From NCBI GenBank assembly GCA_013426185.1, contig CP058602.1:628549-692548 (forward strand): a stretch of 64,000 bases of DNA. Reading direction: 5' to 3'. This document shows, piece by piece, positions 13,526-36,375 of this stretch. Both the position numbers and the translations under genes were made by a program. Source of the DNA: Candidatus Woesebacteria bacterium. Its GTDB lineage: Bacteria; Patescibacteriota; Microgenomatia; UBA8517. Position 1 is the stretch's first letter. Every line of letters begins with the position of its first letter. The notes beneath the pieces were generated by a model that saw nothing but the letters and a program-made list of their open reading frames with translations, had not been told where the DNA came from and did not search any database.

Positions 13526-13988
13526 CAGGAGTGATTACCAAACAACGTTCTTTACCTTCACCTACAGACTCGCTTTTTACACCTTGAATATTACCAATAG
13601 TCAGATGAATAATTTTCCTCTGATCAGCTGAAAGATTATAAAGGTACTGAGGAGCACCCGTTTCTTTTGCCTTCTTGGCTGTTTTCTCTGCTAGGTCCTT
13701 TAAATATTCCTCTTGTCTTTCAAGCCAATCCCCCACATTAACTTTAACTTGATGCCACTCCCCTGTTTTTTGTTTTAAAGAAAGCTGTAAAAAAGTCTTG
13801 ATGGCATTAATATTTTCACCCTGCCTACCAATAAGAAGCCCCGCTTCACTTTCAGTTTTTAAATCGACTAAATAGAAATCCTCTTCCTGATTCACTCTAA
13901 ACTCAATAGTTAAACCAAGAAGAGAAAAGAGATTTTTAACTAAATCTTCAAGAATTGTTTTTGGATCACTTTTTTCCTGACTTGTCAT
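13485..13988 (-). CDS. jag: Jag/KH-R3H domain RNA-binding protein (SpoIIIJ-associated)
   Basis: Position immediately downstream of yidC. R3H-like segment ADQRKIIHLTIGNIQGVKSESVGEGKERCLVI. Confidence 0.65.
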   Translation of the reverse strand: MTSQEKSDPKTILEDLVKNLFSLLGLTIEFRVNQEEDFYLVDLKTESEAGLLIGRQGENINAIKTFLQLSLKQKTGEWHQVKVNVGDWLERQEEYLKDLAEKTAKKAKETGAPQYLYNLSADQRKIIHLTIGNIQGVKSESVGEGKERCLVITPDASYKGKSFEEKK

Positions 13989-14790
13989 TAGAAGTTGATT
14001 TTAGCAAAGAAAAACGAGAAAGCAAAGAGCCAATCTTGGAGGAGTCATATTGTTGATAAAATTGAATTAAAGAAAAAACCACCCAATAAAGAGCAAGACC
14101 TGAAGGAAATTTCATTCCAAAAAAGAGAGTCATCAAAGGAAAAGTATAAAGCATTGACTGTTGTATTGATGCCTGCAAGTCATCTGAAACTTCTTTTGTC
14201 TTTTTTGCTTTCCTCTTATAAACTTCAGTTGAACTCATCATTAACTTTGAGGACCAAAACTGAACCAAAGCTGCCAAAATAACCACTGGGCCAGGAATAG
14301 GAAAGGGAACGCTGTTTAATTTAAAAACATCGGGTTCTGTGACATCAAGATAAAGAAATTTAGTGTTAACAACTTCCTCTTGAGAAAACTTTAAAGGGGG
14401 GTAAAGAAGGTCATTAAATTTTTGAGTCAAATTCTCGCTTGAATAAATAGTCCTTGTAAAAACATTAAAAAAGGCAATAAAAATTACTATTTGTAGAAGA
14501 TAAGGTAAGCATCCTGCGCCCGGATTTATCTTGTTCTGGCGATAAAGTTCAGCTTGAGCCTGAGCTAGTTTAACCTTATCATCTTTAAATTTAGCTTTAA
14601 TCTTCTCAAGCTGCGGCGCTATCTTTTTCATCTTTTTCATTGACTCAAGATAGGGTTTGGTTAGGGGGTTTAAAACAAATCTTAAAAAGACGCTAAAAAC
14701 AATAATTGCCAAGCCTAAATTATTTCCAAGCAGACGGTAAAATAAAATAAGTCCATTGGCAAGTGGTTGAACAAAAATGGTGGTAAACAT
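13966..14790 (-). CDS. yidC: Membrane protein insertase YidC (short form)
   Basis: YidC/Oxa1 core motifs (…KMKKIAPQLEKIKAKFKDDKVKLAQAQAELYRQNKINPGAGCLPYLLQIVIFIAFF…). Synteny rpmH-rnpA-yidD-yidC-jag. Confidence 0.85.
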   Translation of the reverse strand: MFTTIFVQPLANGLILFYRLLGNNLGLAIIVFSVFLRFVLNPLTKPYLESMKKMKKIAPQLEKIKAKFKDDKVKLAQAQAELYRQNKINPGAGCLPYLLQIVIFIAFFNVFTRTIYSSENLTQKFNDLLYPPLKFSQEEVVNTKFLYLDVTEPDVFKLNSVPFPIPGPVVILAALVQFWSSKLMMSSTEVYKRKAKKTKEVSDDLQASIQQSMLYTFPLMTLFFGMKFPSGLALYWVVFSLIQFYQQYDSSKIGSLLSRFSLLKSTSNDKSGKK

Positions 14791-15607: not shown

Positions 15608-17002
15608 ATGATAAATGAAAGTCAAAAAGAACAAATCTGGCAAGATTGCCTCGGCGATATTAAAGTATCTGTTTCGCCAGCCATATTTTCTACCTGGTTT
15701 TCCCAAACGTATATAACCAAATTGAATCAGAAAGAGGATAGAGTTGTTGTAGAAATTGGTTGTCCATCCTCGTTTGTTAAAAATACTATTGAAAATAGAT
15801 ATTATGGATTAATTCAAGACACCCTAAATAAAATCATAGGACAAAAATGTGATGTTCTTTTTGAAATTAAAGCAAAAAAAGAAAACAAAAGTCAGGAAAT
15901 AGCTTTAACGCCATTATTTCAAGAAAAAAAAGAAAGGGAAGAAAAAAAGGATGAAACCTTCCTTGAGGAACTAAAAAAATCAAGACTTAGACCTTTTTAT
16001 ACTTTTGAAAATTTTGCTGTATCATCTTCTAACCAAATGGCTTGGGCTGCTTGCGAGGCAGTGGCAAAAAACATAGGCAGTGCTTACAATCCACTTTTTC
16101 TGTGGGGCGGAGTAGGTGTTGGAAAAACCCACTTGATGAATGCAGTTGGTTATTATGCTAAGAAAAACGACATTAATAAAAACGTTTATTTTTGCACAGG
16201 AGAAGACTTTACCAACGACATTGTTGAAGGAATAAGAAATAAAACCACGCAAAAATTTAGAAACAAGTATAGAAAGCTAGATATTCTTTTGATTGATGAT
16301 ATACAGTTTATCGCTGGTAAAGATGCTGTTCAGGAAGAATTCTTTCACACATTTAATGCTATTGTTGCAGCAGGAGGTCAAATTATTTTAACTTCTGATA
16401 AACCACCATCTGAAATATCAAAACTAGAGGAGAGGCTAAGAAGCCGTTTTGAAGCGGGTTTAATTGTAGATATTGCTCCGCCTGATTTTGAATTAAGGTG
16501 CGCTATCACCCAAATCAAAGCTAAAGAAAAAAACATCAATTTGGAAATGAATATAGTTCAAACAATAGCCGCCAATCTTGATTCGGCAAGAAAGATAGAA
16601 GGTTTTCTCATAAGGCTAAGAAGTGCCGTTGAAATTAATAAATATCCTGAAATTACAGAAGAAATAGTAGAAAATCTTTTGGGTAAAAGAGATCAAGAAA
16701 TTGAAAAGAGAAAAAAAGTAAGTAGTGAAGATGTAATTGAAGCAGTTTGCAAACAATACACTCTCAAGAAAAAACAAATACTTGGCGATTCGAGAGTTAA
16801 AAATTTTGCTTTACCACGACAGATTTTAATGTATCTGTTAAGAACAGAGCTTAATCTTCCACTTCAGGAGGTGGGTAGAATTATTGGAGGAAGAGATCAC
16901 ACGACTGTAATGCATGCTGTGGAAAAAATAACCAAGCTTGCCTCGGAAAGTGTGGATATCAGAGAGGATATAACGGGGATAAAAAAAACACTTTGGGGAT
17001 AA
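15608..17002 (+). CDS. dnaA: Chromosomal replication initiator protein DnaA
   Basis: AAA+ Walker A (GGVGVGKTHL), Walker B (LLIDDIQF). C-terminal DnaA box-binding HTH (…LPLQEVGRIIGGRDHTTVMHA…). Confidence 0.9.
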   Translation: MINESQKEQIWQDCLGDIKVSVSPAIFSTWFSQTYITKLNQKEDRVVVEIGCPSSFVKNTIENRYYGLIQDTLNKIIGQKCDVLFEIKAKKENKSQEIALTPLFQEKKEREEKKDETFLEELKKSRLRPFYTFENFAVSSSNQMAWAACEAVAKNIGSAYNPLFLWGGVGVGKTHLMNAVGYYAKKNDINKNVYFCTGEDFTNDIVEGIRNKTTQKFRNKYRKLDILLIDDIQFIAGKDAVQEEFFHTFNAIVAAGGQIILTSDKPPSEISKLEERLRSRFEAGLIVDIAPPDFELRCAITQIKAKEKNINLEMNIVQTIAANLDSARKIEGFLIRLRSAVEINKYPEITEEIVENLLGKRDQEIEKRKKVSSEDVIEAVCKQYTLKKKQILGDSRVKNFALPRQILMYLLRTELNLPLQEVGRIIGGRDHTTVMHAVEKITKLASESVDIREDITGIKKTLWG

Positions 17003-17204
17003 TTTAAAATTTTTTCCACTTATACACATTTTTAAAAGCTTTATCCACAAAAATATCCACAAAAAACAAGCTTTAAAATCAACAATCTAATCAGACTTAA
17101 ACAAACCCAACTTTCCACTTTTCAACAACCCCTACTACTATGACTACTTATAGAAAAAGAAAAAACACTGGTTTTTTCAAAAGCAATGTTTTATACTTCT
17201 TTTA
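17003..17204 (+). promoter_or_regulatory. Candidate oriC: AT-rich dnaA-dnaN intergenic region with clustered DnaA boxes
   Basis: TTATCCACA at 17042..17050. ATATCCACA at 17054..17062. TTATaCACA at 17021..17029. Flanking A/T-rich stretches. Confidence 0.55.
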
Positions 17205-18299
17205 ATGAAACTTCAGGTTGTGCAAGAAGACTTTAAGAAAGCTGTTATTATTGCTTCTCGCTTTTCGAGCGCAAGGCCACAAATTCCAGTTTTGTCTAAT
17301 TTACTACTTTCAACAAGTAATAATAATTTAACTATCTCTGCTACCAATTTGGAAATATCTATTAATTTTAAAATAGGAGCAAAGGTGGAAGAAAAAGGTG
17401 ATATTACAGTTCCTGCAAAGTCTTTGGCTGAGATAGTGAGTAATTTAAATCCGGGTGTAATTAAATTAAAATCAGAAAAGGAACAACTAACTCTTGAAGC
17501 TGAAAATTTTAAATCAAAACTTTTGGGAATAAATGCTTCTGAATTTCCCAAAGTTCCAAAAGAGATGACAGGTAGTATGATCGAGATTCCGTTTGGTTCT
17601 TTAGTCCAATCTTTGTCTAAAGTTGTCTTTGCCTCCTCATATGATGAAACAAGGCCTGTTTTGACGGGAATACTTTTAATGCTTGATGAAGGTAAATTAA
17701 GTTTGGTGGCAACTGATGGTTACCGACTTTCTGTTTCTCAAATAGAAGGAAAATATCAAAGCGATGTTAAGAAATTAATAGTTCCAAAATTTATTTTTAA
17801 CGAGATTCCAAGAATTGCAACAGGCGAGAATATAATTTTTTCTTTTGATACTAAAAACAGTCTGGTTCTTTTTAAAACTAAAGAGGCGATTTTATCATCT
17901 CGTGTTATTGAAGGTGTGTATCCTGATTTTCAAAAAATAATCCCCAAAAGTTTTAAAACAAAAGTTTTGATTGATAAAGATGATTTTTTGCGCTTGATTA
18001 AGCTTTCGTCTGTCTTTGCTCGAGATTCTGGTAATGTAATTAAAATTTCAATTAAAAATAATTTGTTGGATGTTTTTGCTGAAAGCCAATATTCTGGTTC
18101 ACAAAAAAGCTCGGCTGAAGCAAAAGTTGAGGGTGATGATGTAGAAATTGCTTTCAATTACAAATTTTTAGAAGATTTCTTGAATTCAGTATCAGGCGAG
18201 ACTGTTTCTCTTGAGTTGAATGACTCAAGTTCTCCTGTTGTTTTTAAAGATACTTCTGATAAAAATTATCTTCACTTAATAATGCCGGTTAAAATTTAA
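17205..18299 (+). CDS. dnaN: DNA polymerase III beta sliding clamp
   Basis: N-terminus MKLQVVQEDFKKAVIIASRFS… and three-domain length typical of DnaN. Position after dnaA. Confidence 0.85.
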   Translation: MKLQVVQEDFKKAVIIASRFSSARPQIPVLSNLLLSTSNNNLTISATNLEISINFKIGAKVEEKGDITVPAKSLAEIVSNLNPGVIKLKSEKEQLTLEAENFKSKLLGINASEFPKVPKEMTGSMIEIPFGSLVQSLSKVVFASSYDETRPVLTGILLMLDEGKLSLVATDGYRLSVSQIEGKYQSDVKKLIVPKFIFNEIPRIATGENIIFSFDTKNSLVLFKTKEAILSSRVIEGVYPDFQKIIPKSFKTKVLIDKDDFLRLIKLSSVFARDSGNVIKISIKNNLLDVFAESQYSGSQKSSAEAKVEGDDVEIAFNYKFLEDFLNSVSGETVSLELNDSSSPVVFKDTSDKNYLHLIMPVKI

Positions 18300-19327
18300 A
18301 ATTGATTTTTTGAAGACGCGTCAAGGTAAAGTAGTGCTTTAACTTCTTTTGTATCTTTAGTCTTGGCCCATCCAGTTAATATAAAGACTGGTGGTAAAGT
18401 ATTGTTTCTTGAGTTATTTTCTAATAGGTATGCTAGTTCTATTTTTTCTACTCTGATTGATTGTATAAAGTCGTTTTCGATATCTGGTATGTTGATATTA
18501 CCTTCGTCTAGACTTATGAGAACCGACTGATTTATGTTTTCTAGAATTTCTTTGTAATCCTTAATTTTTACTTTACCGATGTTGCTAATACTTACGTCGT
18601 TTATTAGGTTAATTTCCGAGTTTAGAATGTTTCCATCCTTAAGCACTTGAACATAATATAAAAATTGTATGGGGGCGGGGTTAAGGATGATAATGTTGTT
18701 GATTTTTTGAGAAAAATTTACTTGGTATATTTGAAAATTATCTTCTTTTGCTTCGGTAAAGGTTTCTTTCTCTTTTTCTAGTTTTAACAAGGTTGTGCTT
18801 GTGTAATATATTTTGTCTTCAGGGATATTTATTTTTTCTTTTAAAAAGTTTTTGGCAATTGCAACGACATCTTCGTTTTTAAGTTGCTTGTTGGGAGCTG
18901 TTTTTATCTCTTCTTCAGGATTGTGATTAGGTGAATACTTAATTTTTCTGTTTTTAAGGTTTATTGTTAAATCATAATTATCACCGTTCCATATGAGTAT
19001 TTTTCCTTCCTCTATGTCGTCAAATTCTTTGGGGCTTTTCGTAAAACCAAGGCTGGAGGCAATTTTTTGGGCATCATCTTTTGAAAGAGGGTTTTGTTTT
19101 TTTACAAGGTATGGCACTTCTTTTGGAAAGGAAAAATCTTTTTCATTAATATTAAATGTTATAGTAAAGTTTGCTTTTTTGGAATCACTTGGATAACTGA
19201 TTTTAGGAGAAATATATTCTTTTTTTGTTTTTTCTTTGTTTTTTCCATTTAGTATAACAATAGCAAAAACAACAAGAGATATTACTAGTAATGCGAATAT
19301 AATAATTTTTGTTTTTTTTGTTTTCAT
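18296..19327 (-). CDS. Hypothetical exported/membrane-anchored protein (first gene of minus-strand T4SS-like cluster, or its last)
   Basis: N-terminal signal anchor KIIIFALLVISLVVFAIVIL. No recognisable motif. Tightly packed with 19337..22318. Confidence 0.5.
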   Translation of the reverse strand: MKTKKTKIIIFALLVISLVVFAIVILNGKNKEKTKKEYISPKISYPSDSKKANFTITFNINEKDFSFPKEVPYLVKKQNPLSKDDAQKIASSLGFTKSPKEFDDIEEGKILIWNGDNYDLTINLKNRKIKYSPNHNPEEEIKTAPNKQLKNEDVVAIAKNFLKEKINIPEDKIYYTSTTLLKLEKEKETFTEAKEDNFQIYQVNFSQKINNIIILNPAPIQFLYYVQVLKDGNILNSEINLINDVSISNIGKVKIKDYKEILENINQSVLISLDEGNINIPDIENDFIQSIRVEKIELAYLLENNSRNNTLPPVFILTGWAKTKDTKEVKALLYLDASSKNQF

Positions 19328-19336
19328 TTTTGGTCC

Positions 19337-22318
19337 TTAAGGTATATTACCACAGTTATTGCTGCACCCGTAAGGTACGTGCTTGGGTATATATGGAACG
19401 TCCATTTTTATATTTTGTCTAAATTCATAATGCAAATGGGGTCCTGTACCATCAGAACCGCTTAGACCTATTATTTGTCCCTTGATTACTTTTTGCCCTG
19501 TTGATACTGATGATGCTGATAGGTGAGCATATCTTGTGATAATTGTTTTGCCGTTACAGGTTGACTCAACGTCTATATAAAGAGGTCTATAGGCGTTACT
19601 AGTTCTTACAACAGTTGCTGTACCCGAGTGCGTGGATATTATAGAATGACCGGTGGTAGCGGCTATGTCTATTGCCTCAACCAGTAAGTGACTAAATATT
19701 CCGCGTGGCCCTTGTGTTATCCTAAGACTCGTCTCCCCGCCCTCTGGCATTATTGGCCAACCACTAGGACATTCTTCTGGAGGATTACCTATTTTGATGG
19801 ATGCAGATCCGGCGCTTGAGACGCTTTCTCCCTCGGCATTTGTAGCAGAAACAGTTATTGTATCTATAGTAAGCGTGTCCTCAAACTGAGGCGAGGTAAA
19901 AGTTTTTTTATAGGTGAAGGTGTAAGGTGATGCTGAGTCTATTGTGCCTATATTGCTACCATTTGGTATTGCTGGATTTGGGTTTGGACAGCTTGGTATG
20001 TTATTCTTTTTTGTTACGTTACAGGTTTCGCTTATTGATATATTTGTTAGAGAACCTTTTTTTGCCTTTATTGTTATTTCGTATGTTATCTCAAGAGGGA
20101 GTTGGTTGTTTTCAAAAGAAAGTTCACTGCTTTTTCCTTTTTCTGGATATTTTTCTGAATAAGCTAGTTTTGCAACTTCTATATATTCGTTTACAACAGC
20201 TCCTGGCCCTAAAGATGCCATTTTTGTTGAAGGAGGATAAACATAAGCTCCAGAATTGATAATAAAAAGAATTATGGCAACAAGAATTGGTATGCCAATA
20301 AAGACAATAAGCATAGGAATAACAAGAGAAGCTAAAACTATATTAGTCAAAGCAAAAAATAGACCTCCCAGAAAAGCACCTATTGATGCAGCTCTTGAGA
20401 CGCTTATTACACCTACTCCGGCAACAAGGTAAAGAGGAGCACCTGTTAAAGCAAATGCTCCTACAAGAATTCCTGCTAGAATGAAAGTAAGTTTGTCTTG
20501 ATTTTTCTTAAGCCAAACTTTTATGAGACTCGCTAGATCCTTAAGCGATAATAGAGCTGTTACTGCTGATATTACTTGTCCAATAGCGGGGATAACGTTT
20601 GCGGCAAGAGCGGCCCCTAGTTTGGTGGCAGCGGCCTTGGCGGCGATTTTGGTGGCGACCTTCGAGCCTAGTTTTGCAGTCATTCCGCTGATAGCTGTGT
20701 TTAATTTGGCAACAGCGGGAATTTTATTTATGAGCTTGTCGAAGGCAAAGTTGAGTATAGGAGAAGACAAAATGTTTGGTGACGAGAAACTGCCAAAATT
20801 TAAAGAAATTGCAATAGGCAGAGATTGTCCTTGTGTGGAAATACCTATGGTGGCAAGTTGTGTGTCTAGCCAGCCGGTGCTAACAGTTACTACTTGCCCT
20901 TGGGGGGGTGGCAATTTTTTACCGGTGATAAAGCTAAAAGCTCGTGTAGCAGAGGAAACTTTGCCCGCTACTTTTTTAATTTCAGTCTCAAGACGAGCTT
21001 TTTCTGGTTTACTTAGCTGATTGTATGTTTTTTCATCTAAAATAGCATTTTTAATTTGCTTTTCCAAAGTTTGAAAGGAGACAACTTGTTCTAAAAATTC
21101 AGTTAAATTTACATTTATTCCTCCTTCTGGTATTTTCCCTTCCGGCGCAGCTTCAAGTTTTCTTATTTGAGGAGGAATAAAAAAGGGCGACCAGTCTTGG
21201 CCGAATGCTTGATTAACAAAATTAGTGGCAATAGTAGAGTCTTTTTCTAGAGAGTATAGGGCTTCAAGAGATATTCTACTAATTTCCTCTCTTGCTTTTG
21301 CGTCAGGTATTATTTTTGCTAGTTCTTCATTTTTTGGATTAGCAAAGAAAGCTAGTGTTTCAAAAGGCGAAGAATCAATAGTTATTTTTGGGTCTTTAGG
21401 ATCAATGTTTAATAATTTTAGGGTGAAAGTTTTTGCGACGATTTCAGCAGATTCTGTTTCTAAAGGATTTTCAGGATTTAATTTTGATGTTTCTATAATC
21501 CTTTCTTTTAGTTGGTCGGCAAAATTTTGTGGATCTTGGTGAGCTAATTTAACTATTTCCAGTTGTTCTTTGCTTAGTTTTATTGTTGGTTCAGGGAGAG
21601 GAGAGTAGAGATTTGTTTCTAGTGATTTTGTCTCTGTTTTTTTAATTTCAACTTCCTCTCTTTTTAATATTGACCCTACTCTTTTTAGTAGAGTTTTGCT
21701 TGAATTGGTTTTTGCTATTGTTGTTTCTGGTGTTTTTTGGAAAGGTAATATGTTAGGATTAAGAGTTTCTTTCTGAACTGCTGTTGTTTCTTTAGACAGG
21801 ATGCTTTCAGTAGGTTTAATTGAATTTGGCTGTGATGTTGATTGTTCTTGGGTTTTTGCTTGAGGGATTTTGGGTGTAGTTGTTTCTAAAATGTTAGTAG
21901 TATCTGTATCTTCTTTTACAGAAGTTTTTTCCGAAGATTTTGGTTGTTCTTTTCCTTGTGCTTTTGTAGATGAATCTTTAGCCTGGGGTATTACTGGTAG
22001 TGCTTCTTTTTTTTGTCCTGAGGCTTTTTCGTACAATGTAACTAAGTCTTCTATATTGACAGGTACTGTTGAATAGACTTCTTCTCCGCGATCTAAGGCA
22101 ATTTTCCATCCCCTTACAATTTGTATCGCGTCTTGAATACTTTCGGCTTGGGTTGCTTCTAGAAGTTTTTGTTCAAAAGTTTCTTTGTTTTGTCCAGAAT
22201 AAAAAACTGCGGGAGCAACTTTTTGATCTTCTGGATAAAATTGGTCTGGAAAGAAAGCAACACATCCGTTGTACAAGAAATCAACAACTTCTTTGCTTAG
22301 TTCGTATTTTTCTGTCAT
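19337..22318 (-). CDS. Large multidomain protein with central TM block and C-terminal M23 (LytM-type) peptidoglycan endopeptidase domain
   Basis: C-terminal M23 motifs (…LVEAIDIAATTGHSIISTHSG… and GSDGTGPHLHYEF). 3-4 hydrophobic helices near residues 560-660. T/S/P/K-rich linker region. Confidence 0.7.
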   Translation of the reverse strand: MTEKYELSKEVVDFLYNGCVAFFPDQFYPEDQKVAPAVFYSGQNKETFEQKLLEATQAESIQDAIQIVRGWKIALDRGEEVYSTVPVNIEDLVTLYEKASGQKKEALPVIPQAKDSSTKAQGKEQPKSSEKTSVKEDTDTTNILETTTPKIPQAKTQEQSTSQPNSIKPTESILSKETTAVQKETLNPNILPFQKTPETTIAKTNSSKTLLKRVGSILKREEVEIKKTETKSLETNLYSPLPEPTIKLSKEQLEIVKLAHQDPQNFADQLKERIIETSKLNPENPLETESAEIVAKTFTLKLLNIDPKDPKITIDSSPFETLAFFANPKNEELAKIIPDAKAREEISRISLEALYSLEKDSTIATNFVNQAFGQDWSPFFIPPQIRKLEAAPEGKIPEGGINVNLTEFLEQVVSFQTLEKQIKNAILDEKTYNQLSKPEKARLETEIKKVAGKVSSATRAFSFITGKKLPPPQGQVVTVSTGWLDTQLATIGISTQGQSLPIAISLNFGSFSSPNILSSPILNFAFDKLINKIPAVAKLNTAISGMTAKLGSKVATKIAAKAAATKLGAALAANVIPAIGQVISAVTALLSLKDLASLIKVWLKKNQDKLTFILAGILVGAFALTGAPLYLVAGVGVISVSRAASIGAFLGGLFFALTNIVLASLVIPMLIVFIGIPILVAIILFIINSGAYVYPPSTKMASLGPGAVVNEYIEVAKLAYSEKYPEKGKSSELSFENNQLPLEITYEITIKAKKGSLTNISISETCNVTKKNNIPSCPNPNPAIPNGSNIGTIDSASPYTFTYKKTFTSPQFEDTLTIDTITVSATNAEGESVSSAGSASIKIGNPPEECPSGWPIMPEGGETSLRITQGPRGIFSHLLVEAIDIAATTGHSIISTHSGTATVVRTSNAYRPLYIDVESTCNGKTIITRYAHLSASSVSTGQKVIKGQIIGLSGSDGTGPHLHYEFRQNIKMDVPYIPKHVPYGCSNNCGNIP

Positions 22319-22320
22319 CT

Positions 22321-24300
22321 TTATTGAATAATATCAGTTTTAATAGATATTTTTGGTTGCTCTTGTTGTGTCTGATTAAGTGCCACGTCACTTTTATTTG
22401 ATAATTCTATTGGGTTACTGGTTATAAGTTGATGTTCCTCAGGTGAAGCAACTACTCTAATAGGAGCATGGTGCGGGCCGGCGAAGAAGATTCCCTCTCC
22501 AACATTGGCTGAAAGCAAGAGCTGCTTTTCTCCTTGTGAGAGATAAAAAACTTCACCCACGCGGTCTATAGCAGTTGGCGATTGTTTTAATAGGACTCTT
22601 AGGGCGCTGTTTGTTACAATGGCTTTACCAATATCTTGAGAAAGGAAATCTTCTACATCTTGAGTAATAGTTGTTAATCCTAGGAAGTATTTTCTTGCTC
22701 TTTTAACAACGCTCCATAAAAACTGGGCTGAATCTTCATATCTCATCATATGCCAGGCTTCGTCAACAATTAGAATTCTTCTTTTGAGGTTTCTTTGTAC
22801 ACGAGTCCAAATAAAATCAAGAATCATAAACATAGCAATAGGGCGAAGAGCCTCTTGCATATCTTTAACTGAAAAAACTGTAAAGGGATTATTGATGTCT
22901 ATATTTGTTTGTTTGTCGAAAATGCCCACAAAACTTCCTTTGACAAATCTTTCTATTCTTGAAGCAAGATCAAGCGCATCTTGAGTTTCCATACCAATTA
23001 ATGTTTTATAAAGATCTTCCATAAGGGGGGGTTCTTTTTTTTGGGTACTAGGATCTTGGGTTATACCCTTTGCGTGGTATGTTGCCACTATGGCGCGGTC
23101 AAGAAGGGCTTCTTTGATAGGGTCAAGCTTCCCCATAATAACTTTAAAGAATGAATGCAGAGTGAGAATTTTTAAGCCTAGTTGATTTTCTCCCTCTGTG
23201 TAAACTTGAGAGAGATCAAAAGGATTAATCTTTGAGGGAGAGTTGAAAGAAAAGGAAATATATTCTCCTCCTACCGCCTCGCAAAGAGGTTTGTATTCTG
23301 CTTCAGGATCAAGAATGATTACTTCGGTTCCAAGCATTAAACTTCTAACAGACTCTAGTTTTACAAAGTATGATTTTCCTGCTCCAGAAGTTGCAAAAAT
23401 TGTCATATTTGAATTTTCAAGAGAAAATCGGTCAAAGATAATAAATGAGCCGTTTTGTGAATTAATGCCATATAAAACACCTTCATCTGATGAAAGTTCA
23501 GCTGATGTTAAAGGAAAGGTAGTAGCAAGAGAGGTTGAATCCATGTTGCGGGTTATTGCTAGTTTGTTAAAGCCGAAGGGAACTGTGGTTAAAAAGCCAT
23601 TTTCCATATCAAGTGTTGCTTTTTTGGCGATAATCATCAACGAGCCAAGGGTTGACTCTACCTGTTTTGTAATATGATCTAATTCTTCTATGGTCGCAGC
23701 TGGTATGGTTATGTAAAATGCAAACTCAAAAAATCTTTCAGCACCTTTTACTAATTGTTCTTGGAGGGTAAGAGCGTCCTCAAGTTTTGCCTGGGTGTTG
23801 GGATCAATTACCTTACCTCTTTCGATATCGGTTGCAATTTCAGCTTCCATTTCAGTAATTTTTCTTCGCAAATCGTCAAGAACACTTTTCCCTTCGATAG
23901 GATAGATATAGAAGGAAATATCAAGAGAATTATTAAAGTTAATTATGGGTTCAAGCCAACCTGGGCTGACAAAGCGTGGATAACCTGAAACAAAGATAGT
24001 TCGAAAATAAGTGTCGTTGATTTTAATATAATCAAAGTCGGTTTCAATAATTTTGGGAGCGATAGCATCAATCAATTCGACCTTTTTGGTAAAAATATCA
24101 ATACTGGGATTACTTATTTCCGGCTTTTCCTCAGTTGATTTTACCGTTGAATCCAAATTTAAATCTTTTACACTATTTTCTTTATTCTCGACTGGTTGAA
24201 GATTGTTTGGTCCATAAGTAGGCTCTGGCGTTTGATAGAGAACTTCTTGATTATCTTTTTTTGTTTCTTCTTTGTTTTTTTTCTTTAAGATGTTAAACAT
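22321..24300 (-). CDS. VirB4/TrbE/CagE-family type IV secretion ATPase (ATPase body)
   Basis: Walker A FATSGAGKSYFVK. Walker B RILIVDEAWHMM. Conserved TQ motif (LTTITQD). Start taken as the internal MFNILKK methionine rather than the 24366 start that overlaps the upstream ORF. Confidence 0.75.
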   Translation of the reverse strand: MFNILKKKNKEETKKDNQEVLYQTPEPTYGPNNLQPVENKENSVKDLNLDSTVKSTEEKPEISNPSIDIFTKKVELIDAIAPKIIETDFDYIKINDTYFRTIFVSGYPRFVSPGWLEPIINFNNSLDISFYIYPIEGKSVLDDLRRKITEMEAEIATDIERGKVIDPNTQAKLEDALTLQEQLVKGAERFFEFAFYITIPAATIEELDHITKQVESTLGSLMIIAKKATLDMENGFLTTVPFGFNKLAITRNMDSTSLATTFPLTSAELSSDEGVLYGINSQNGSFIIFDRFSLENSNMTIFATSGAGKSYFVKLESVRSLMLGTEVIILDPEAEYKPLCEAVGGEYISFSFNSPSKINPFDLSQVYTEGENQLGLKILTLHSFFKVIMGKLDPIKEALLDRAIVATYHAKGITQDPSTQKKEPPLMEDLYKTLIGMETQDALDLASRIERFVKGSFVGIFDKQTNIDINNPFTVFSVKDMQEALRPIAMFMILDFIWTRVQRNLKRRILIVDEAWHMMRYEDSAQFLWSVVKRARKYFLGLTTITQDVEDFLSQDIGKAIVTNSALRVLLKQSPTAIDRVGEVFYLSQGEKQLLLSANVGEGIFFAGPHHAPIRVVASPEEHQLITSNPIELSNKSDVALNQTQQEQPKISIKTDIIQ

Positions 24301-25003
24301 TTTGATTTTCCTCCTCCTTTTTAGGAACCGGCGGCTTTGAATTAAAAATATTATAGTAGAGATCAATTAATTGGGCTGTAGTTAGCTGTCTTAATGTTAT
24401 ACCCAATCTCCTTGCCTGTCTTATTAAATGATCTCTTTTTGGGTAAAGTGAGATTTTGGCTTTTTTTAAAGCGTAAGATTTTGGGAATGGAAGTTTTTGC
24501 CCTCTTTTTATAATTGTCGAGGCCGATTTGGCTATTCCCATTTCAAGTGGGCTAAAAGGAACAACTATGTAAAAGCTTTTCCCCAATACATTTCTTTTTT
24601 TAATAATTTCATTTACAAAGCTTTTGTAACGACTCATTAAAGAAGCAAGTTTTGGATTTTTAATCTTTTGTTCTGCTGACTCAAGATATTCTATGTATTT
24701 TGAAATATCTTTAATTTGCGAGCGAACAATTATCTGAATTGGGAAAGAAAGCGAGTTTAGAAGCGCAGCATAAGCAAAAATGACTGCTTGTTGTTCTTTT
24801 TCTGAAAGCAAAGAAAAATTAAGAGAAGTTGACTCAAGCACTATTGCAGCTCCGCCATCTTTAAAAAGAACAATATTATCGACAATATCGGCAATGGGTA
24901 GAAAATCTTGAGTAGTAGAAATAATAGGAGTATCGGGCATACTAAGGTAGGGTATTTTTAGAGGTATTTTTTTAATTTTGTCTTTCATATTAGTTAATTG
25001 CAT
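24293..25003 (-). CDS. Protein resembling the N-terminal (CagE_TrbE_VirB-type) domain of VirB4; possible split VirB4
   Basis: Segment …FLPIADIVDNIVLFKDGGAAIVLESTSLNFSLLSEKEQQAVIFAYAALLNSL… resembles the VirB4 N-domain pattern. It lies immediately upstream of, and overlaps, the ATPase ORF in a different frame. Confidence 0.4.
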   Translation of the reverse strand: MQLTNMKDKIKKIPLKIPYLSMPDTPIISTTQDFLPIADIVDNIVLFKDGGAAIVLESTSLNFSLLSEKEQQAVIFAYAALLNSLSFPIQIIVRSQIKDISKYIEYLESAEQKIKNPKLASLMSRYKSFVNEIIKKRNVLGKSFYIVVPFSPLEMGIAKSASTIIKRGQKLPFPKSYALKKAKISLYPKRDHLIRQARRLGITLRQLTTAQLIDLYYNIFNSKPPVPKKEEENQNV

Positions 25004-26042
25004 TTGGTGTTGTTTGCGTTGATTTGGCTCTGATTAATATAGGTGGAATGATTTCTCCTTTTGCTTCAAAAGTGGCAGGTTCAAATTCATAACCTTCTTT
25101 CTCAGTAATAATATCGTATTGTCCGTTGGCAAGCGCGGTGACGATCATAAAGTGGCCGAGTTTATTTGACCTTATAGCACGAACAGGTCGGCCGGCAATA
25201 TCTCTTATTTCAAGTATTGCTCCTTCGATAATTTTTCCATTTTGATCTAACACTTGTCCTGTTATCGTGTTCGGAATGGTTGGTGGAAGTGGAGGTGCTG
25301 CTTCGGCTGAAAACTGAACTTGCTGTGATGCTTTTGGTGGCTCTTTTAGTATAGGAGTAACCTGTTGAAGGGATAAGGAAGGCTGTGCGTTTGGTTGTGT
25401 TTCAGCTATTTTTTCTTCGACAACGATTTTGGGTCTGAACGATTTTGGTTGGGTAGTGGGTGCAACTACTGTCTGAGGTCTAACGGGCGCTTGATTAATA
25501 ACTACTGGAGTGGGAGTAGGAGTAGCAACTTGAGCCTGGTTTGCGGATTGACCTTCTTTGATGACCACATTTCCTTGTCTGAAAAGGCTCAATATTCTTG
25601 AGAGAAAATTTTCCTCACCGCTTTCTAATTTATTAAGAGCTCCCTCGTTTTCAGTTGGCACTTTTTTAAGGTATTCTTCAACTTTTTGTTCAGCTTGTGT
25701 TTGTGGAGCTTGAGCTTGAGCCATCTCTTCGTCTTGAAAGAATTTGTAGCCAGCTTGGTTTTTTTGCCAAAGGTAAATGGTAGGGGAATATACAGAGCGA
25801 AAGAAGGCAATTATCCAACGGCTCAACGGCCTTTCTTCAAAAGGTAAAAATGCAAGAGCTGCTCCAAGCGAAACAGAAAACAAAATTAATGGCCATTTGA
25901 TAAAAGGATGAAGGCCAGTTGAATAGATTAAAAGACCCACTAAAGCTCCACCCCCAAGCTGGAAGAATTGTTTTAAAGTCATATCTCCTACCAATCTGAA
26001 CTGGTAGGAACTTATCTGTTGTGGTATCGGATGAGTCTCCAT
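24990..26042 (-). CDS. VirB3/PrgI-like two-TM membrane protein with Pro/Gln/Thr-rich linker and C-terminal beta-sandwich (carboxypeptidase-regulatory-like) domain
   Basis: Two N-terminal hydrophobic helices (GGGALVGLLIYSTGL…, WPLILFSVSLGAALAFL). Position upstream of VirB4. C-terminal GQVLDQNGKIIEGAILEIRD…GHFMIVTALANGQYDIITEKEGY pattern. Confidence 0.4.
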   Translation of the reverse strand: METHPIPQQISSYQFRLVGDMTLKQFFQLGGGALVGLLIYSTGLHPFIKWPLILFSVSLGAALAFLPFEERPLSRWIIAFFRSVYSPTIYLWQKNQAGYKFFQDEEMAQAQAPQTQAEQKVEEYLKKVPTENEGALNKLESGEENFLSRILSLFRQGNVVIKEGQSANQAQVATPTPTPVVINQAPVRPQTVVAPTTQPKSFRPKIVVEEKIAETQPNAQPSLSLQQVTPILKEPPKASQQVQFSAEAAPPLPPTIPNTITGQVLDQNGKIIEGAILEIRDIAGRPVRAIRSNKLGHFMIVTALANGQYDIITEKEGYEFEPATFEAKGEIIPPILIRAKSTQTTPNAIN

Positions 26043-26084
26043 TTTCAGGTAAAAGGCAAGAGGTAAAAGGTAAAAGTAAAGATT

Positions 26085-26459
26085 TTATATCTTTTCTCTT
26101 GCCCTTTTTCTTGATCCATATAATAATTTTTTGTTCTCAACAATTAGATTTGATACCTCGTTAAAATCATCTTTTCCTATATATTTTAATTCCAGAGATA
26201 TATCAATTAAGACTTCAAGCTCAGTCAAAGAGCCTATTGAGATCGTAAGGAACCTTGAATATTCTTTAGGTTTTTCTTTTATATAACCTTCTACAATATT
26301 GGCAACGACTGATATTGCTGCCCTTCTTATTTGAGGAACAAGGCAGTAAAATTCTTCTTTGGGATAGGAATTTGTGAGGCGGTATATCATTAGAACTAAT
26401 TGTTTTGCTTTTTGATAGGAAATTAATTTCTGATAACTTGTCTTTTGTTGTTTTTCCAT
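26085..26459 (-). CDS. Four-helix-bundle protein (23S rRNA intervening-sequence protein family)
   Basis: Signature YQKAKQLVLMIYRLTNSYPKEEFYCLVPQIRRAAISVVANIVEGY. Flanked on both sides by inverted gtaaaag/ttaaaag-type repeats. Confidence 0.75.
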   Translation of the reverse strand: MEKQQKTSYQKLISYQKAKQLVLMIYRLTNSYPKEEFYCLVPQIRRAAISVVANIVEGYIKEKPKEYSRFLTISIGSLTELEVLIDISLELKYIGKDDFNEVSNLIVENKKLLYGSRKRAREKI

Positions 26460-26544
26460 AGTATTCCTTTTAACTTTTAACTTTTACCTACATATAACTT
26501 TACCCCGTGAAGAGTCTTGTGCAACCCCTCAAAGGTTTTCACAG

Positions 26545-28449
26545 GTGGATAAAAATGATATAATAATCCAAATGACAGAAGGAGAACAACAAATACCAAG
26601 GGCTGAATCTGCACCTAAAGGGTTGGTTCCCGAAAAGTACCTTGCTTTTAAAGGGTCACTGTTTTTCGGGACTGAGGATGAATTGAATAGTTTTAAAGAG
26701 GGATTAAAAGATTTATCAGATCCGGAGCGAGAGATTGGGGAAAGAGTTTTGAAGTTGCATAGGATAATGGCAGGTTTATCCACATCTTCGCTACAAGGTG
26801 AATTAGAAGAGATTTATAAGACAGCTAAAGATAACAATTTACCTGATGATAATGAGTTGTTTGTTTTTGCCGCTTCGGTTCTTTCAACCGAGATAGGACA
26901 GAGAATGACATCTTCCGGTCAGGGTCGTGTTGTAGGTGGAGAGGAAAGAGATCCTGCGTTGAATGATTTGCTAGAAATAAATAGACAACTTCTTAAAGCA
27001 ACGACAGGGCAGTTGGAATTACAAAAACAACAAATGGAGTTATTGAGGCGCTCTGGTTTTTCTGGCTTTGTTTCTGCAATGCAAGCAAGAGCGGGTATAA
27101 ATGTCCAGCAGTTTGATACAGAACCTCCGGTTTGGTATGACAGACTTTCTGATGAGTGGAAAAGAGTTGTTAGAACAAATCTGGGCATTTTGATGGGGGC
27201 TTATCTAAAGTTCAGATCGCCTGGCCAGGGGGCGGAATTGATTATAAAGTCTGAAGATATTCGTATCGAGAGGGAGGCCTTGGCTTTTATGTGGGAGAAT
27301 CTACCTGGTTTTAGGATGACCATTGCTACTATTGTTTCTGAATTGTTTGAGGATAGCGAGGGTAAGATGGTGCTCACCAAAGATGGTAAAGACAAATTAG
27401 CAGACACTCCTGCTTATATATCTTCTTTATTGGCGAGATTAAAGAAATATTTTTCAGAAAATCCCGATAGTCTTATGTTGTATTCACAAACTCTTGGGCC
27501 TGAAGATATAAACCCTGATGTTGCCGCCCGATTTGCTGTTTCTGCTGCCTTTAATTTGCTTTATTTGGGTGGTGCTTTTGAATCTGGTGATTTGGGTAAA
27601 GGCCTAAAGGATTCTTATTCTTTTAATCCTTCTGTGAGGACTTTTTGTTTACCTCGAGATCAGGCAAGGTCAAAATACATTTCAGGTGAAGAAGATATAA
27701 TTGGAACAGATGAGGCATGGGGGGGTAAATTGGGAGAGTGGTTTGCCGAGAGAATTAGGCACAAACCCCAATTTAAGCAAGACTTTTTAAACAACAAGGG
27801 AATAACTAGGCTTATGCCTCAAAGATTAATGTATAGTTTGTTTGATTTAACTTACTTTAAAAATGGAGAAACCCTTTCTAAAGCATTATTGTCAATTTTG
27901 TCTCCTGAAAATAGAAGAGAGATTTCAGGTATGGTTGACTATACAGATCCCAACCTGGTTAATTTTAGAGACCTCAAGTATCCAGAGCTTTGGGGCGGAT
28001 ATTCTGATTTAATGGATTCTGCTTTTAAGGTCTATCAGGCAATAATTGGTAAGGCGGACAAGGAATTTGACCGGCAGGCTCTGGCCAACTCTCTTTCAAA
28101 GTTGAGAAAAGATCCTACTTTGAAGGGTATCTATACGGGAGAAAATGGTGAGTGGGTGGTATTAGCCGCTTTGACCTCTCTTCTTGGCGGTCCTAATTTG
28201 TATAGTTCTGAGATACTTTTAAGATTGCCGGATGAAAGTTATGATTATTCGGTTTGGGAATGGCTTGATGATGACAGAGTTTTAGCCGCCTTGCCGAGTG
28301 GGGCAAGAGAAAGGATTTTTAGAGCTTTAAACGCGAAAAATCTAGATTCTACTGTTGATGCATTTTCATCTTTATTTAGCGGCTCCTTTTTGGGTAGAAG
28401 AGAATCTTTAAGAAGGAGAATAAGAAAGGAACAGAAAAGGTGGCGTTAG
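26545..28449 (+). CDS. Hypothetical 634-aa protein on the strand opposite to, and embedded within, the T4SS-like cluster
   Basis: Long ORF with no TM and no recognised motif. C-terminus Arg-rich (RRRIRKEQKRWR). Confidence 0.5.
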   Translation: MDKNDIIIQMTEGEQQIPRAESAPKGLVPEKYLAFKGSLFFGTEDELNSFKEGLKDLSDPEREIGERVLKLHRIMAGLSTSSLQGELEEIYKTAKDNNLPDDNELFVFAASVLSTEIGQRMTSSGQGRVVGGEERDPALNDLLEINRQLLKATTGQLELQKQQMELLRRSGFSGFVSAMQARAGINVQQFDTEPPVWYDRLSDEWKRVVRTNLGILMGAYLKFRSPGQGAELIIKSEDIRIEREALAFMWENLPGFRMTIATIVSELFEDSEGKMVLTKDGKDKLADTPAYISSLLARLKKYFSENPDSLMLYSQTLGPEDINPDVAARFAVSAAFNLLYLGGAFESGDLGKGLKDSYSFNPSVRTFCLPRDQARSKYISGEEDIIGTDEAWGGKLGEWFAERIRHKPQFKQDFLNNKGITRLMPQRLMYSLFDLTYFKNGETLSKALLSILSPENRREISGMVDYTDPNLVNFRDLKYPELWGGYSDLMDSAFKVYQAIIGKADKEFDRQALANSLSKLRKDPTLKGIYTGENGEWVVLAALTSLLGGPNLYSSEILLRLPDESYDYSVWEWLDDDRVLAALPSGARERIFRALNAKNLDSTVDAFSSLFSGSFLGRRESLRRRIRKEQKRWR

Positions 28450-33377: not shown

Positions 33378-33773
33378 TTATTGATTAACAGTAGGAATCT
33401 GAAGGTTAAAAATGTTAACACCAAAGAAGGTTCCAATTAAGCCAGCTATTGCCCAAGCGGCAAAGACAATAACCAAGCCAACCAAGGCAGCAGTAATTTG
33501 AGCTCTAGCTTGTTCTGTTTGACCTTTATCGCCACCCGAGATAATCCAACGTATTCCGCCGATTACCAAAATAAAGAAGAAAACAATTGCTGCAATAACC
33601 AAAGCCAGTTTTAGAAGACCCGCAATAATACCTCCTATGGTTAGGTTAGCGACAGTTCCAGCTAACTGGTCGTTTGTTGGTTTTAAGTTTATTGTATTTC
33701 CTTGAGCCAAGACTTCTAGAGCTAAGCTTTTCATATTTCCCATATTATCTAATTTTTGTATTGTTTTTGTCAA
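33378..33773 (-). CDS. Pilin-like small membrane protein, paralogue 2
   Basis: Motif IISGGDKGQTEQARAQITAALVGLVIV. Two hydrophobic helices. Confidence 0.55.
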   Translation of the reverse strand: MTKTIQKLDNMGNMKSLALEVLAQGNTINLKPTNDQLAGTVANLTIGGIIAGLLKLALVIAAIVFFFILVIGGIRWIISGGDKGQTEQARAQITAALVGLVIVFAAWAIAGLIGTFFGVNIFNLQIPTVNQ

Positions 33774-34475: not shown

Positions 34476-34856
34476 TTATTTCCAAATGTTTTCAACAAAC
34501 TGAGCTGGATTGAGAATTAGGCTAATACCCAAGATTTTTCCCACCAGTTCGATCAGAAAGATGGAAGCGACAACAACGACAAGACCTATAAGAGCGTTAA
34601 ATATTCTTTTTCTGGCTGATTCAAGAGCTCCTTTGTCTCCACCTGATGAGATCATTGCAATTGCACCTGAAACGAAAACAAAAATAAACCAGAGCCCAGC
34701 GACAATAGTTAAAACACCTATAACTCCTGAAATGAAGGAGTTAAAAATGGTTGGGGCAGTTTCAGGGTTGCTTTGTTCAAGACCCAGCCTGCCAAAGCCC
34801 TTAAAGCCCTCATTTGGCGAAAGCGGTATGTCTGCAGCAATTAGTTTTGAGATCAT
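34476..34856 (-). CDS. Pilin-like small membrane protein, paralogue 4
   Basis: Motif ISSGGDKGALESARKRIFNALIGLVVV. Confidence 0.55.
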   Translation of the reverse strand: MISKLIAADIPLSPNEGFKGFGRLGLEQSNPETAPTIFNSFISGVIGVLTIVAGLWFIFVFVSGAIAMISSGGDKGALESARKRIFNALIGLVVVVASIFLIELVGKILGISLILNPAQFVENIWK

Positions 34857-35835: not shown

Positions 35836-36375
35836 TTACGATAAACCTGGAATCTTAAGTATACTAACTCCAATTACTCTTAAAATAAAAACAGAAAAAA
35901 TCAAAAGGATTAATCCCATTATAGCCGAACTTAGAAGTTCTTTTCCTGCCTGAAGCCTTTTAGGGTCTCCTTGCGATGTCATAATTTGAAATGAGGCGAT
36001 AATAATTAAGATAAAAGCTATTCCTCCTGCAATACCAATCGCCCATTTAAGTATAAATTCTATCATTCCCTGCTGCTCAATTGGGATACAACCAATGGCG
36101 GTATCAATACAGTCGCCTTTTAGGGCAGAGATACCAGCAGCAGGATTGGCAACCCCTCTTGGTAGGGGTACTATGGTCGAATTGGGGTCGTCTTGACAAT
36201 AGCCATTTACACAGATCAAGCCAGTTTGACAGGAGTCGGGCGGGCCTCCAGCTAAGTTGCAGCATCTCTCCCCAATTAGACCGCATTGAATTGGAGATTG
36301 TGCTGAAACTTTTCCTTGCGCCAGGGACAACAAAAGAAATAAGCTGGCAAGGAAGGTAATTATATTTTTTCTCAT
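35836..36375 (-). CDS. Pilin-like protein, paralogue 8, with added N-terminal signal peptide and 8-Cys-rich ectodomain (candidate minor or tip pilin)
   Basis: Signal peptide, then CGLIGERCCNLAGGPPDSCQTGLICVNGYCQ, then the family motif MTSQGDPKRLQAGKELLSSAIMGLILLIF. Confidence 0.55.
   Translation of the reverse strand: MRKNIITFLASLFLLLSLAQGKVSAQSPIQCGLIGERCCNLAGGPPDSCQTGLICVNGYCQDDPNSTIVPLPRGVANPAAGISALKGDCIDTAIGCIPIEQQGMIEFILKWAIGIAGGIAFILIIIASFQIMTSQGDPKRLQAGKELLSSAIMGLILLIFSVFILRVIGVSILKIPGLS

What the first reader, a model, noticed from the sequence alone, without database searches (positions are those of the whole stretch)
22321..25003. VirB4 appears split into an N-domain-like ORF and an ATPase-body ORF
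The 236-aa ORF 24293..25003 shows the pattern of a VirB4 N-terminal domain (…LFKDGGAAIVLESTSLNFSLLSEKEQQ…). It ends 4 nt before the best start codon of the 660-aa ATPase body, in a different frame. Together they total about 900 aa, the size of a canonical VirB4. This could be a genuine two-gene arrangement, a programmed frameshift, or a sequencing/assembly frameshift.
Basis: inference. Interest (0 to 1): 0.5.

Follow-up and report, generated by a model that had tools for sequence, protein, structure and literature searches.

The report
Two-gene VirB4 (TrsD-like plus ATPase)
The type IV secretion ATPase VirB4 of this ultra-small (Patescibacteria) bacterium really is encoded as two overlapping genes, a small TrsD-like piece and the ATPase body, but this is a conserved and already published arrangement, not an error or a frameshift.

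Summary
The two minus-strand ORFs exist as described. One detail is wrong: they overlap by 8 nt (ATGTTTAA) and are not 4 nt apart. A GGAGGAGG ribosome-binding site lies 9 nt upstream of the ORF2 ATG.

ORF1 (231/236 aa) and ORF2 (659 aa) align colinearly to single-chain VirB4 proteins. ORF1 covers the first ~170-250 residues and ORF2 covers the rest.

It is a genuine two-gene arrangement.
- Four independent assemblies carry the identical junction, with ~2% SNPs and no indels.
- Of 80 Patescibacteria species loci, 78 keep the genes separate. They do so in all three relative frames, with junctions from -32 to +219 nt.
- These two results rule out an assembly error and a programmed frameshift.

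Natural in-frame fusions (30 protein clusters; 2 of 80 loci) link the two parts functionally.

ORF1 belongs to Pfam PF26593 (TraC-like) and is a remote homologue of TrsD/TraD of staphylococcal pGO1/pSK41. In pSK41, trsD lies directly upstream of a 672-aa VirB4.

Quinonero-Coronel et al. 2025 (PMC12102498) already report 2,272 TrsD homologues in Patescibacteria. They find 1,664 of them beside virB4, often near dnaA, as in this window.

Verdict: real, ordinary and already known. Interest is low.

The parts
24990..26042 (-). PrgI/VirB3-like membrane protein with a C-terminal CarboxypepD_reg-like domain (350 aa). It lies immediately upstream of ORF1.
   Evidence: Pfam PrgI 27.3 bits (cut-off 27) at aa 5-87; CarboxypepD_reg E 3e-7 at aa 259-319. 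The same gene order is seen in four other assemblies.
24293..25003 (-). ORF1: TrsD-like / Pfam PF26593 'TraC-like' protein, the detached first N-terminal subdomain of VirB4. It is 236 aa from ATG 25003, or 231 aa from ATG 24988.
24310..24317 (-). Shine-Dalgarno sequence GGAGGAGG for ORF2. It lies inside the 3' end of ORF1, 9 nt upstream of the ATG.
   Evidence: Read directly from the sequence.
24293..24300 (-). 8-nt gene overlap ATGTTTAA (ORF2 start codon and ORF1 stop codon); the site of translational coupling.
   Evidence: Read directly. The junction is identical in four independent assemblies.
22321..24300 (-). ORF2: VirB4 body (659 aa). It has a ~75-aa polar tail, then the CagE_TrbE_VirB part of the N-terminal region, then the P-loop ATPase domain.
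   Evidence: NCBIfam conju_CD1110 393 bits (cut-off 325), positions 179-734 of 752. Pfam P-loop_TraG E 6.4e-32 and PF03135 24 bits (cut-off 21). 4ag5 VirB4 E 6e-48; TrwK residues 446-736.
23371..23391 (-). Walker A motif TSGAGKS (ORF2 aa 304-310).
   Evidence: Read from the translation and alignment.
22759..22776 (-). Walker B motif ILIVDE (ORF2 aa 509-514).
   Evidence: Read from the translation and alignment.
19337..22318 (-). 993-aa protein with a C-terminal M23 peptidase domain, probably the cell-wall hydrolase of the system. Its ATG lies 2 nt after the ORF2 stop.
   Evidence: Pfam Peptidase_M23 E 6.2e-18; junction read. An M23 gene follows VirB4 in the Pontibacillus and Carboxydocella plasmids as well.
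33378..33773 (-). VirB2-like T4SS pilin gene, one of three. The others are at 34476..34856 and 35836..36375.
   Evidence: Pfam T4SS_pilin E 9.3e-10. NCBIfam Mbov_0395-family pilin-like hits for all three.

Best explanation
This is the chromosomal type IV secretion locus of a Patescibacteria bacterium of the Microgenomates/Woesebacteria type. In it, VirB4 is encoded by two translationally coupled genes.

ORF1 is a soluble TrsD-like (Pfam 'TraC-like') protein of about 230 aa. It corresponds to the first roughly 170-250 residues of single-chain VirB4 proteins. ORF2 carries the remainder: the second half of the N-terminal region (PF03135) and the P-loop ATPase domain.

Shown here:
- the homology and its colinearity with single-chain VirB4;
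- conservation of the split;
- the gene overlap and the Shine-Dalgarno sequence;
- the existence of natural fusions.

Inferred:
- The two genes are made from one transcript, running PrgI/VirB3-like gene, ORF1, ORF2, M23 hydrolase gene. A ribosome terminating at the ORF1 TAA re-initiates at the ORF2 ATG 2 nt upstream, helped by the GGAGGAGG inside ORF1. This would give roughly equimolar products.
- The ORF1 protein docks non-covalently on the ORF2 protein and rebuilds a complete VirB4 N-terminal region. In the R388 structure that region contacts VirB3 and the VirB8 tails and anchors the ATPase hexamer to the membrane channel.
- The poorly conserved C-terminal tail of ORF1 and the polar first ~75 residues of ORF2 are the remnants of, or equivalent to, the linker seen in fused forms.
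For: Colinearity with single-chain VirB4:
- ORF1 aa 30-170 match VirB4_plasma positions 103-254; ORF2 matches positions 292-893. ORF2 also matches CD1110-family VirB4 positions 179-734 of 752.
- Against the fused 754-aa Carboxydocella protein, ORF1 aa 32-212 align to residues 12-167 (E 2e-17) and ORF2 aa 76-633 to residues 184-747 (E 3e-92).

Structure:

Not an error:
- Four assemblies from different samples differ from the window by 33-59 SNPs over 2.4-2.7 kb. They have no indels and an identical junction.

Conserved as two genes:
- ORF1 has 2987 homologues; the 120 listed are all 209-283 aa.
- 78 of 80 species-level genome loci keep two ORFs. Relative frames are 38/25/11 and junctions run from -32 to +219 nt, with ATGA (-4) the commonest at 21 loci.

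Functional link:
- 30 of the 120 best hits to a fused query carry both parts in one chain of 709-1429 aa. They fall in several unrelated groups.

Precedent:
- pSK41 has trsD (227 aa) directly before a 672-aa VirB4.
- The ORF1 family profile against TrsD gives E 8.6e-5 over 179 columns, end to end.
- The Pontibacillus megaplasmid has the same split, an 11-nt overlap and a downstream M23 gene.

Literature (PMC12102498):
- TrsD homologues are the most abundant T4SS component in Patescibacteria.
- 1,664 of 2,272 lie beside virB4.
- One is listed as essential in Ca. Southlakia epibionticum.
- The locus is often near dnaA/dnaN, as here.
Against: - Physical association of the two proteins was not tested, and no complex prediction was possible with these tools.
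- ORF1 scores only 26 bits against the NCBIfam TrsD model (cut-off 200). It gave no hit in the local Pfam copy or in PDB sequence searches.
- The tools do not print aligned ranges, so which part of TrwK matches ORF1 is inferred, not seen.
- The paper reports TrsD homologues not adjacent to virB4 (about a quarter; most Gracilibacteria). Some independence of function is therefore possible.
- Translational coupling is inferred from geometry only. Some relatives have gaps of 118-219 nt.
Confidence: 0.85

Rival explanations
1. A single virB4 gene was broken by a sequencing or assembly indel at about 24293-24300.
For: The two ORFs abut, sum to ~895 aa and are colinear with single-chain VirB4. Fused forms exist in relatives.
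Against: Four independent assemblies (two ENA, one JGI, one Logan) have the same junction, with ~2% SNPs and no indels over 2.4-2.7 kb. 78 of 80 other species have two ORFs, 11 of them in the same frame and separated by a real stop codon. ORF2 has its own ATG and a strong Shine-Dalgarno sequence.
Confidence: 0.01
2. A programmed +1 ribosomal frameshift near the ORF1 stop fuses ORF1 to ORF2 into one ~890-aa VirB4. The internal Shine-Dalgarno-like GGAGGAGG would stimulate the shift, as in prfB.
For: ORF2 is in the +1 frame. The ORF2 frame is open for 66 nt upstream of its ATG. An SD-like sequence precedes the ORF1 stop.
Against: No slippery motif is conserved. Relatives use all three frame relations, overlaps of 1-32 nt and gaps up to 219 nt. 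No single frameshift mechanism can serve all of these. At GTT-TAA, +1 re-pairing of a Val tRNA on TTT is poor (inference). The SD-to-ATG spacing of 9 nt fits ordinary initiation.
Confidence: 0.02
3. ORF1 is an independent T4SS accessory protein (TrsD). It shares ancestry or fold with the VirB4 N-terminus but does not complete VirB4. It might act as an adaptor, an assembly factor or a regulator with its own partners.
For: About a quarter of Patescibacteria TrsD homologues are not next to virB4 (PMC12102498). No function is assigned to TrsD. The TrsD-like part and the next VirB4 subdomain have the same order of secondary structure and a weak profile match (E 0.0018), so ORF1 could be a paralogous copy rather than a missing piece.
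Against: ORF2 and TrsE start exactly where the TrsD-like region ends in fused proteins. Split-type VirB4 therefore lacks that region rather than duplicating it. Fusion has recurred in several lineages with linkers as short as ~15 residues. The fused model superposes on full-length TrwK.
Confidence: 0.1

Closest known systems
TrsD/TraD plus TrsE/TraE (VirB4) of Staphylococcus aureus pGO1/pSK41 (MPF_FATA, pGO1 subclass; NCBIfam NF041427)
   Same: A protein of about 227 aa is encoded directly upstream of a ~670-aa VirB4 that lacks the first N-terminal subdomain. Gene order is pilin-like, VirB3-like, TrsD, VirB4, then a cell-wall hydrolase. The ORF1 family profile aligns to TrsD end to end (E 8.6e-5). 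ORF2 against TrsE gives E 5e-44, with ORF2 aa 77 matching TrsE aa 35.
   Different: The homology is only remote: 26 bits against NF041427 (cut-off 200). pSK41 has a 14-nt gap rather than an overlap. pSK41 is a conjugative plasmid with a relaxase and coupling protein. The window locus is chromosomal, next to dnaA/dnaN, with an M23 hydrolase rather than a CHAP hydrolase.
Patescibacteria T4SS with TrsD homologues (Quinonero-Coronel et al. 2025, Microb Genom, PMC12102498); Pfam PF26593 'TraC-like'
   Same: It is the same family: ORF1's identical protein P0001 carries PF26593. It lies beside virB4, with PrgI/VirB3-like and VirB2-like pilin arrays, near dnaA/dnaN (paper).
   Different: Nothing substantive differs. 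In a term search for 'split', 'fused' and 'N-terminal', the paper did not mention TrsD-VirB4 fusions; 'fused' occurs only for VirB3-VirB4. It also says VirB3 homologues are mostly not virB4-associated in Microgenomatia. Here a weak PrgI hit lies directly upstream.
Single-chain VirB4 (TrwK of R388; CD1110-family and Mbov_0397-family VirB4; Carboxydocella pCCELLA01 754-aa protein)
   Same: ORF1 plus ORF2 are colinear with these over essentially their whole length. Fold searches give TrwK as the top hit for ORF1 and align 639 residues for a fused relative.
   Different: Those are one polypeptide; here there are two. Sequence identity to TrwK is only 12-15%.
Split arrangement in Bacillota plasmids (Pontibacillus sp. 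ALD_SL1 megaplasmid; Clostridium sporogenes/botulinum 'TraC family protein')
   Same: A PrgI-like gene, then a 257-274-aa ORF1 homologue, then (in Pontibacillus) a CD1110-family VirB4 with an 11-nt overlap, then an M23 peptidase.
   Different: The Bacillota proteins have an N-terminal hydrophobic helix. The Patescibacteria proteins lack it and have a conserved KIPYLxxPDxPI motif instead.

Membership tests
VirB4/TraC-type T4SS ATPase (ORF2) | P-loop ATPase domain of the VirB4/TraG/HerA type with Walker A and Walker B motifs | tested here: met
   P-loop_TraG E 6.4e-32; AAA_10 and DUF87 above their cut-offs. TSGAGKS at aa 304-310 and ILIVDE at aa 509-514. 4ag5 VirB4 C-terminal domain E 6e-48.
VirB4/TraC-type T4SS ATPase (ORF2) | Passes a curated VirB4 family model | tested here: met
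   NF045971 conju_CD1110 scores 393.1 bits against a cut-off of 325, although only positions 179-734 of 752 are covered.
VirB4/TraC-type T4SS ATPase (ORF1 + ORF2 together) | Complete N-terminal region upstream of the ATPase domain | tested here: met
   ORF2 alone lacks profile positions 1-178 (CD1110) and 1-291 (VirB4_plasma). ORF1 supplies positions 103-254 of VirB4_plasma and residues 12-167 of the fused Carboxydocella protein.
VirB4/TraC-type T4SS ATPase | Encoded with other T4SS components (VirB3/PrgI, pilin, cell-wall hydrolase) | tested here: met
   PrgI-like gene upstream, M23 hydrolase gene downstream, three pilin-like genes and an SLT_3-like protein within 12 kb.
TrsD/TraD family (NCBIfam NF041427) | Score above the curated family cut-off | tested here: not met
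   26 bits against a cut-off of 200 (E 7.2e-6, positions 14-142 of 201). ORF1 is a remote homologue, not a member by NCBI's threshold.
TrsD/TraD family (NCBIfam NF041427) | A protein of about 200-230 aa encoded immediately upstream of a VirB4 that lacks its first N-terminal subdomain | tested here: met
   Window: ORF1 236 aa, 8-nt overlap with ORF2. pSK41: trsD 227 aa, 14 nt before a 672-aa VirB4. The family profile against TrsD aligns end to end.
Pfam PF26593 (TraC-like) | Match to the Pfam model | tested here: met
   There are precomputed PF26593 hits for P0001 (100% identical to ORF1 from M6) and for most of the 120 listed homologues. The name is given. The model is absent from the local Pfam copy, so it could not be re-run.
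Programmed ribosomal frameshift gene | Conserved slippery site and a fixed frame relation between the two ORFs in homologues | tested here: not met
   Frame relations are 38/25/11 across 74 loci. Junctions run from -32 to +219 nt, with different sequences at the junction.
Functional VirB4 complex (TrsD-like protein bound to VirB4 body) | Physical interaction and ATPase/secretion activity | not testable with these tools
   There is only indirect support: recurrent natural fusions and superposition of a fused model on TrwK.

The most novel reading that the evidence does not exclude
The TrsD-like piece is more than a passive detached subdomain. Repeated fission and fusion in Patescibacteria, its recurrence as a separate gene in Bacillota plasmids, and TrsD genes away from virB4 could mean it is an exchangeable or separately regulated module. 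Such a module might gate VirB4 assembly onto the VirB3/channel complex. It may also be an ancient duplicate of the adjacent VirB4 subdomain, which would make the VirB4 N-terminal region a tandem repeat.
Probability: 0.12. Interest if true: 0.4.

Novelty: already known. Interest (0 to 1): 0.15.

Why it matters
For annotation, ORF1 should be labelled as the TrsD-like/TraC-like partner of VirB4. The pair should not be flagged as a pseudogene or a frameshift.

Biologically, the Patescibacteria T4SS is reported to be essential for epibiotic growth in Ca. Southlakia epibionticum, including its TrsD homologue (PMC12102498 citing Wang 2023; PMC12857230). No function is assigned to TrsD. The colinearity and the natural fusions shown here give a simple testable hypothesis: TrsD is the first subdomain of VirB4 supplied in trans. 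This refines published knowledge and is not a discovery.

Tried and rejected
- Local Pfam scan of ORF1: only a chance HEAT_ULK4 hit. PF26593 is not in that copy.
- PDB sequence searches with ORF1 and with the family profile: nothing meaningful. The link to solved VirB4 needed fold comparison.
It was re-run with permitted rows.
- Slippery-site or frameshift reading of the junction: rejected on comparative grounds.
- Promoter/terminator scan of 18000-27000: counts were near the shuffled expectation, and there was no minus-strand terminator between the genes.
- Internal duplication test (TrsD-like block against the next VirB4 subdomain): hhalign probability 15%, E 0.0018 over 45 columns. Inconclusive.
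- Guglielmini 2014 (PMC4027160) main text does not contain 'TrsD'. The statement of remote homology therefore rests on the 2025 paper's citation of it.
- The pNP40 genetic study (PMC8194271) has no TrsD-type gene to inform function.
- The exact ORF1 start (25003 or 24988) could not be decided. Neither has a clear Shine-Dalgarno sequence.
Full report
**What is in the sequence**

Four genes are packed head to tail on the minus strand.
- A 350-aa PrgI/VirB3-like protein, 24990..26042.
- ORF1, 24293..25003, 236 aa.
- ORF2, from ATG 24300 to 22321, 659 aa.
- A 993-aa protein ending in an M23 peptidase domain, 19337..22318.

The junction on the minus strand reads AAAGGAGGAGGAAAATCAAAATGTTTAA. The ORF2 ATG (24300-24298) lies 2 nt before the ORF1 stop TAA (24295-24293). 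The genes therefore overlap by 8 nt, with ORF2 in the +1 frame. GGAGGAGG lies 9 nt upstream of the ATG.

The ORF1 start is ambiguous. ATG 25003 overlaps the PrgI-like gene by 14 nt. ATG 24988 lies 1 nt after that gene's stop and is the start used by gene callers elsewhere. ORF2's stop is followed 2 nt later by the next gene's ATG. No terminator-like site separates the genes.

**Is ORF1 the missing N-terminus of VirB4?**

Yes. ORF2 passes the curated CD1110-family VirB4 model (393 bits, cut-off 325), but only from profile position 179 onward. It matches the Mbov_0397-type VirB4 model from position 292. ORF1 aa 30-170 match positions 103-254 of that same model (E 1.4e-9).

A single-chain 754-aa homologue on a Carboxydocella plasmid gives the same picture. 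ORF1 aa 32-212 align to its residues 12-167 (E 2e-17). ORF2 aa 76-633 align to its residues 184-747 (E 3e-92).

ORF2 retains the PF03135 (CagE_TrbE_VirB) part at aa 95-241 and the P-loop domain, with Walker A TSGAGKS and Walker B ILIVDE. ORF2 aa 298-595 equal TrwK residues 446-736. The break therefore lies inside the VirB4 N-terminal region, at roughly TrwK residue 220. It does not lie between the N-domain and the ATPase.

The structural evidence agrees.

**Error, frameshift or two genes?**

Four independent assemblies from different samples (two ENA, one JGI, one Logan) encode the identical ORF1 protein. They differ from the window by 33-59 substitutions over 2.4-2.7 kb, with no indels, and their junctions are identical to the window's.

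ORF1 has 2987 homologues at E <= 1e-3. The 120 listed are all 209-283 aa and come from Patescibacteria.

In 80 species-representative genome loci, mostly Woesebacteria/Microgenomates, 78 keep two separate ORFs.
- The relative frame is +2 in 38 loci, +1 in 25 and 0 in 11. The frame-0 cases are separated by a real stop codon.
- Junctions run from a 32-nt overlap to a 219-nt gap.
- ATGA (a 4-nt overlap) is the commonest, at 21 loci.

No single slippery site or frame relation is conserved. Programmed frameshifting and sequencing error are therefore both excluded. The arrangement is a real two-gene operon segment, typically translationally coupled.

**Fusions**

Two of the 80 loci (L011, L031) carry both parts in one ORF of about 860-915 aa. 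A search with the fused protein found 30 fused clusters among the 120 best hits, 709-1429 aa, with PF26593 together with P-loop_TraG.

The fused forms fall into two clades, one pair and several singletons. The nearest VirB4-body relatives of the singletons are split forms, which suggests several independent fission or fusion events. Linkers range from about 15 residues (P0141, P0145) to long Gly/Pro-rich stretches. This matches the poorly conserved C-terminal tail of ORF1 and the polar first ~75 residues of ORF2.

**What it is called**

The precomputed Pfam family for ORF1's identical protein is PF26593, 'TraC-like'.

ORF1 is also a remote homologue of TrsD/TraD. It scores E 7.2e-6 and 26 bits against NF041427, far below the cut-off of 200. 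In pSK41, trsD (227 aa) sits 14 nt upstream of a 672-aa VirB4. Pilin-like and VirB3-like genes lie before that pair and a hydrolase gene after it.

The ORF1 family profile aligns to pSK41 TrsD end to end (E 8.6e-5, 179 columns). ORF2 aa 77 aligns to TrsE aa 35 (E 5e-44), so TrsE lacks the same region.

The same split occurs on a Pontibacillus megaplasmid, with an 11-nt overlap and a downstream M23 gene. Standalone 'TraC family protein' genes follow PrgI on Clostridium plasmids.

**Literature**

Quinonero-Coronel et al. 2025 (PMC12102498) report the following.
- They found 2,272 homologues, 1,664 of them associated with virB4.
- A TrsD homologue is listed as essential in Ca. Southlakia epibionticum.
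- The T4SS genes often lie near dnaA/dnaN.

The window has dnaN at 17205..18299 and dnaA at 15608..17002. It also has three VirB2-like pilin genes, matching that description. A 2025 review (PMC12857230) summarises the essentiality of this T4SS. The finding is therefore already known.

A term search of that paper did not turn up the recurrent TrsD-VirB4 fusions or the precise colinear break point. Both only refine the published picture.

**Mechanism**

Shown:
- homology and colinearity;
- conservation as two genes;
- the overlap and the Shine-Dalgarno sequence;
- natural fusions.

Inferred:
- co-transcription with the PrgI-like and M23 genes;
- termination-reinitiation coupling that gives near-equimolar products;
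- non-covalent docking of the TrsD-like protein onto the VirB4 body, completing the N-terminal region that contacts VirB3 and VirB8 in R388.

I put 0.85 on this reading overall. The main residual alternative, at about 0.1, is that the TrsD-like protein has an accessory role of its own.

**Verdict**

The feature is real and correctly spotted. The junction geometry was mis-stated. It is a genuine, conserved two-gene VirB4 (TrsD-like plus ATPase body), already described. Interest is low.

Noticed in passing
P0141 model residues 16-199 versus 224-366 (equivalent to window ORF1 versus ORF2 aa ~80-225): The TrsD-like part and the next VirB4 subdomain have the same order of secondary-structure elements. 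They give a weak in-register profile match (hhalign E 0.0018, probability 15%, 45 columns; BLASTP cross-match E 0.62). The VirB4 N-terminal region may be an ancient tandem duplication.
   Followed up: partly
window 24990..26042 (-): The PrgI/VirB3-like protein is unusually long (350 aa). It has a Pro/Gln-rich middle and a C-terminal CarboxypepD_reg-like beta-sandwich domain, presumably outside the cell.
   Followed up: no
window 26085..26459 (-) and 26545..28449 (+): A 23S_rRNA_IVP / bAvd-like four-helix-bundle gene (107 bits) and a 634-aa plus-strand ORF with no family hit interrupt the T4SS cluster. They lie between the PrgI-like gene and the upstream minus-strand T4SS-cluster genes.
   Followed up: no
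window 33378..33773, 34476..34856, 35836..36375 (-): There is an array of three divergent VirB2/Mbov_0395-like pilin genes upstream of the cluster. This is consistent with the pilin arrays reported for Patescibacteria.
   Followed up: partly
proteins P0138 (1429 aa) and P0213 (1191 aa): Some Patescibacteria VirB4 proteins carry an intein with a LAGLIDADG homing endonuclease (PF14528 + PF14890) inserted in the ATPase.
   Followed up: no
alignment A1; L001:4893-5717 and L002:4833-5606 versus window ORF1 aa 15-27: Bacillota ORF1 homologues begin with a hydrophobic, probably membrane-spanning helix. Patescibacteria ones lack it and have a nearly invariant KIPYLxxPDxPI motif, possibly a docking peptide.
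   Followed up: no
window 15608..18299 (+) next to 18296..26042 (-): dnaA and dnaN lie directly beside the T4SS operon and are divergently oriented, so the locus sits at the chromosomal origin region. YidC (13966..14790) is also nearby.
   Followed up: partly
L010, L012, L014 and many other loci: Many of the genome records carrying this Patescibacteria-type locus are titled 'uncultured Gammaproteobacteria bacterium'. This looks like a mislabelling in the source records.
   Followed up: no
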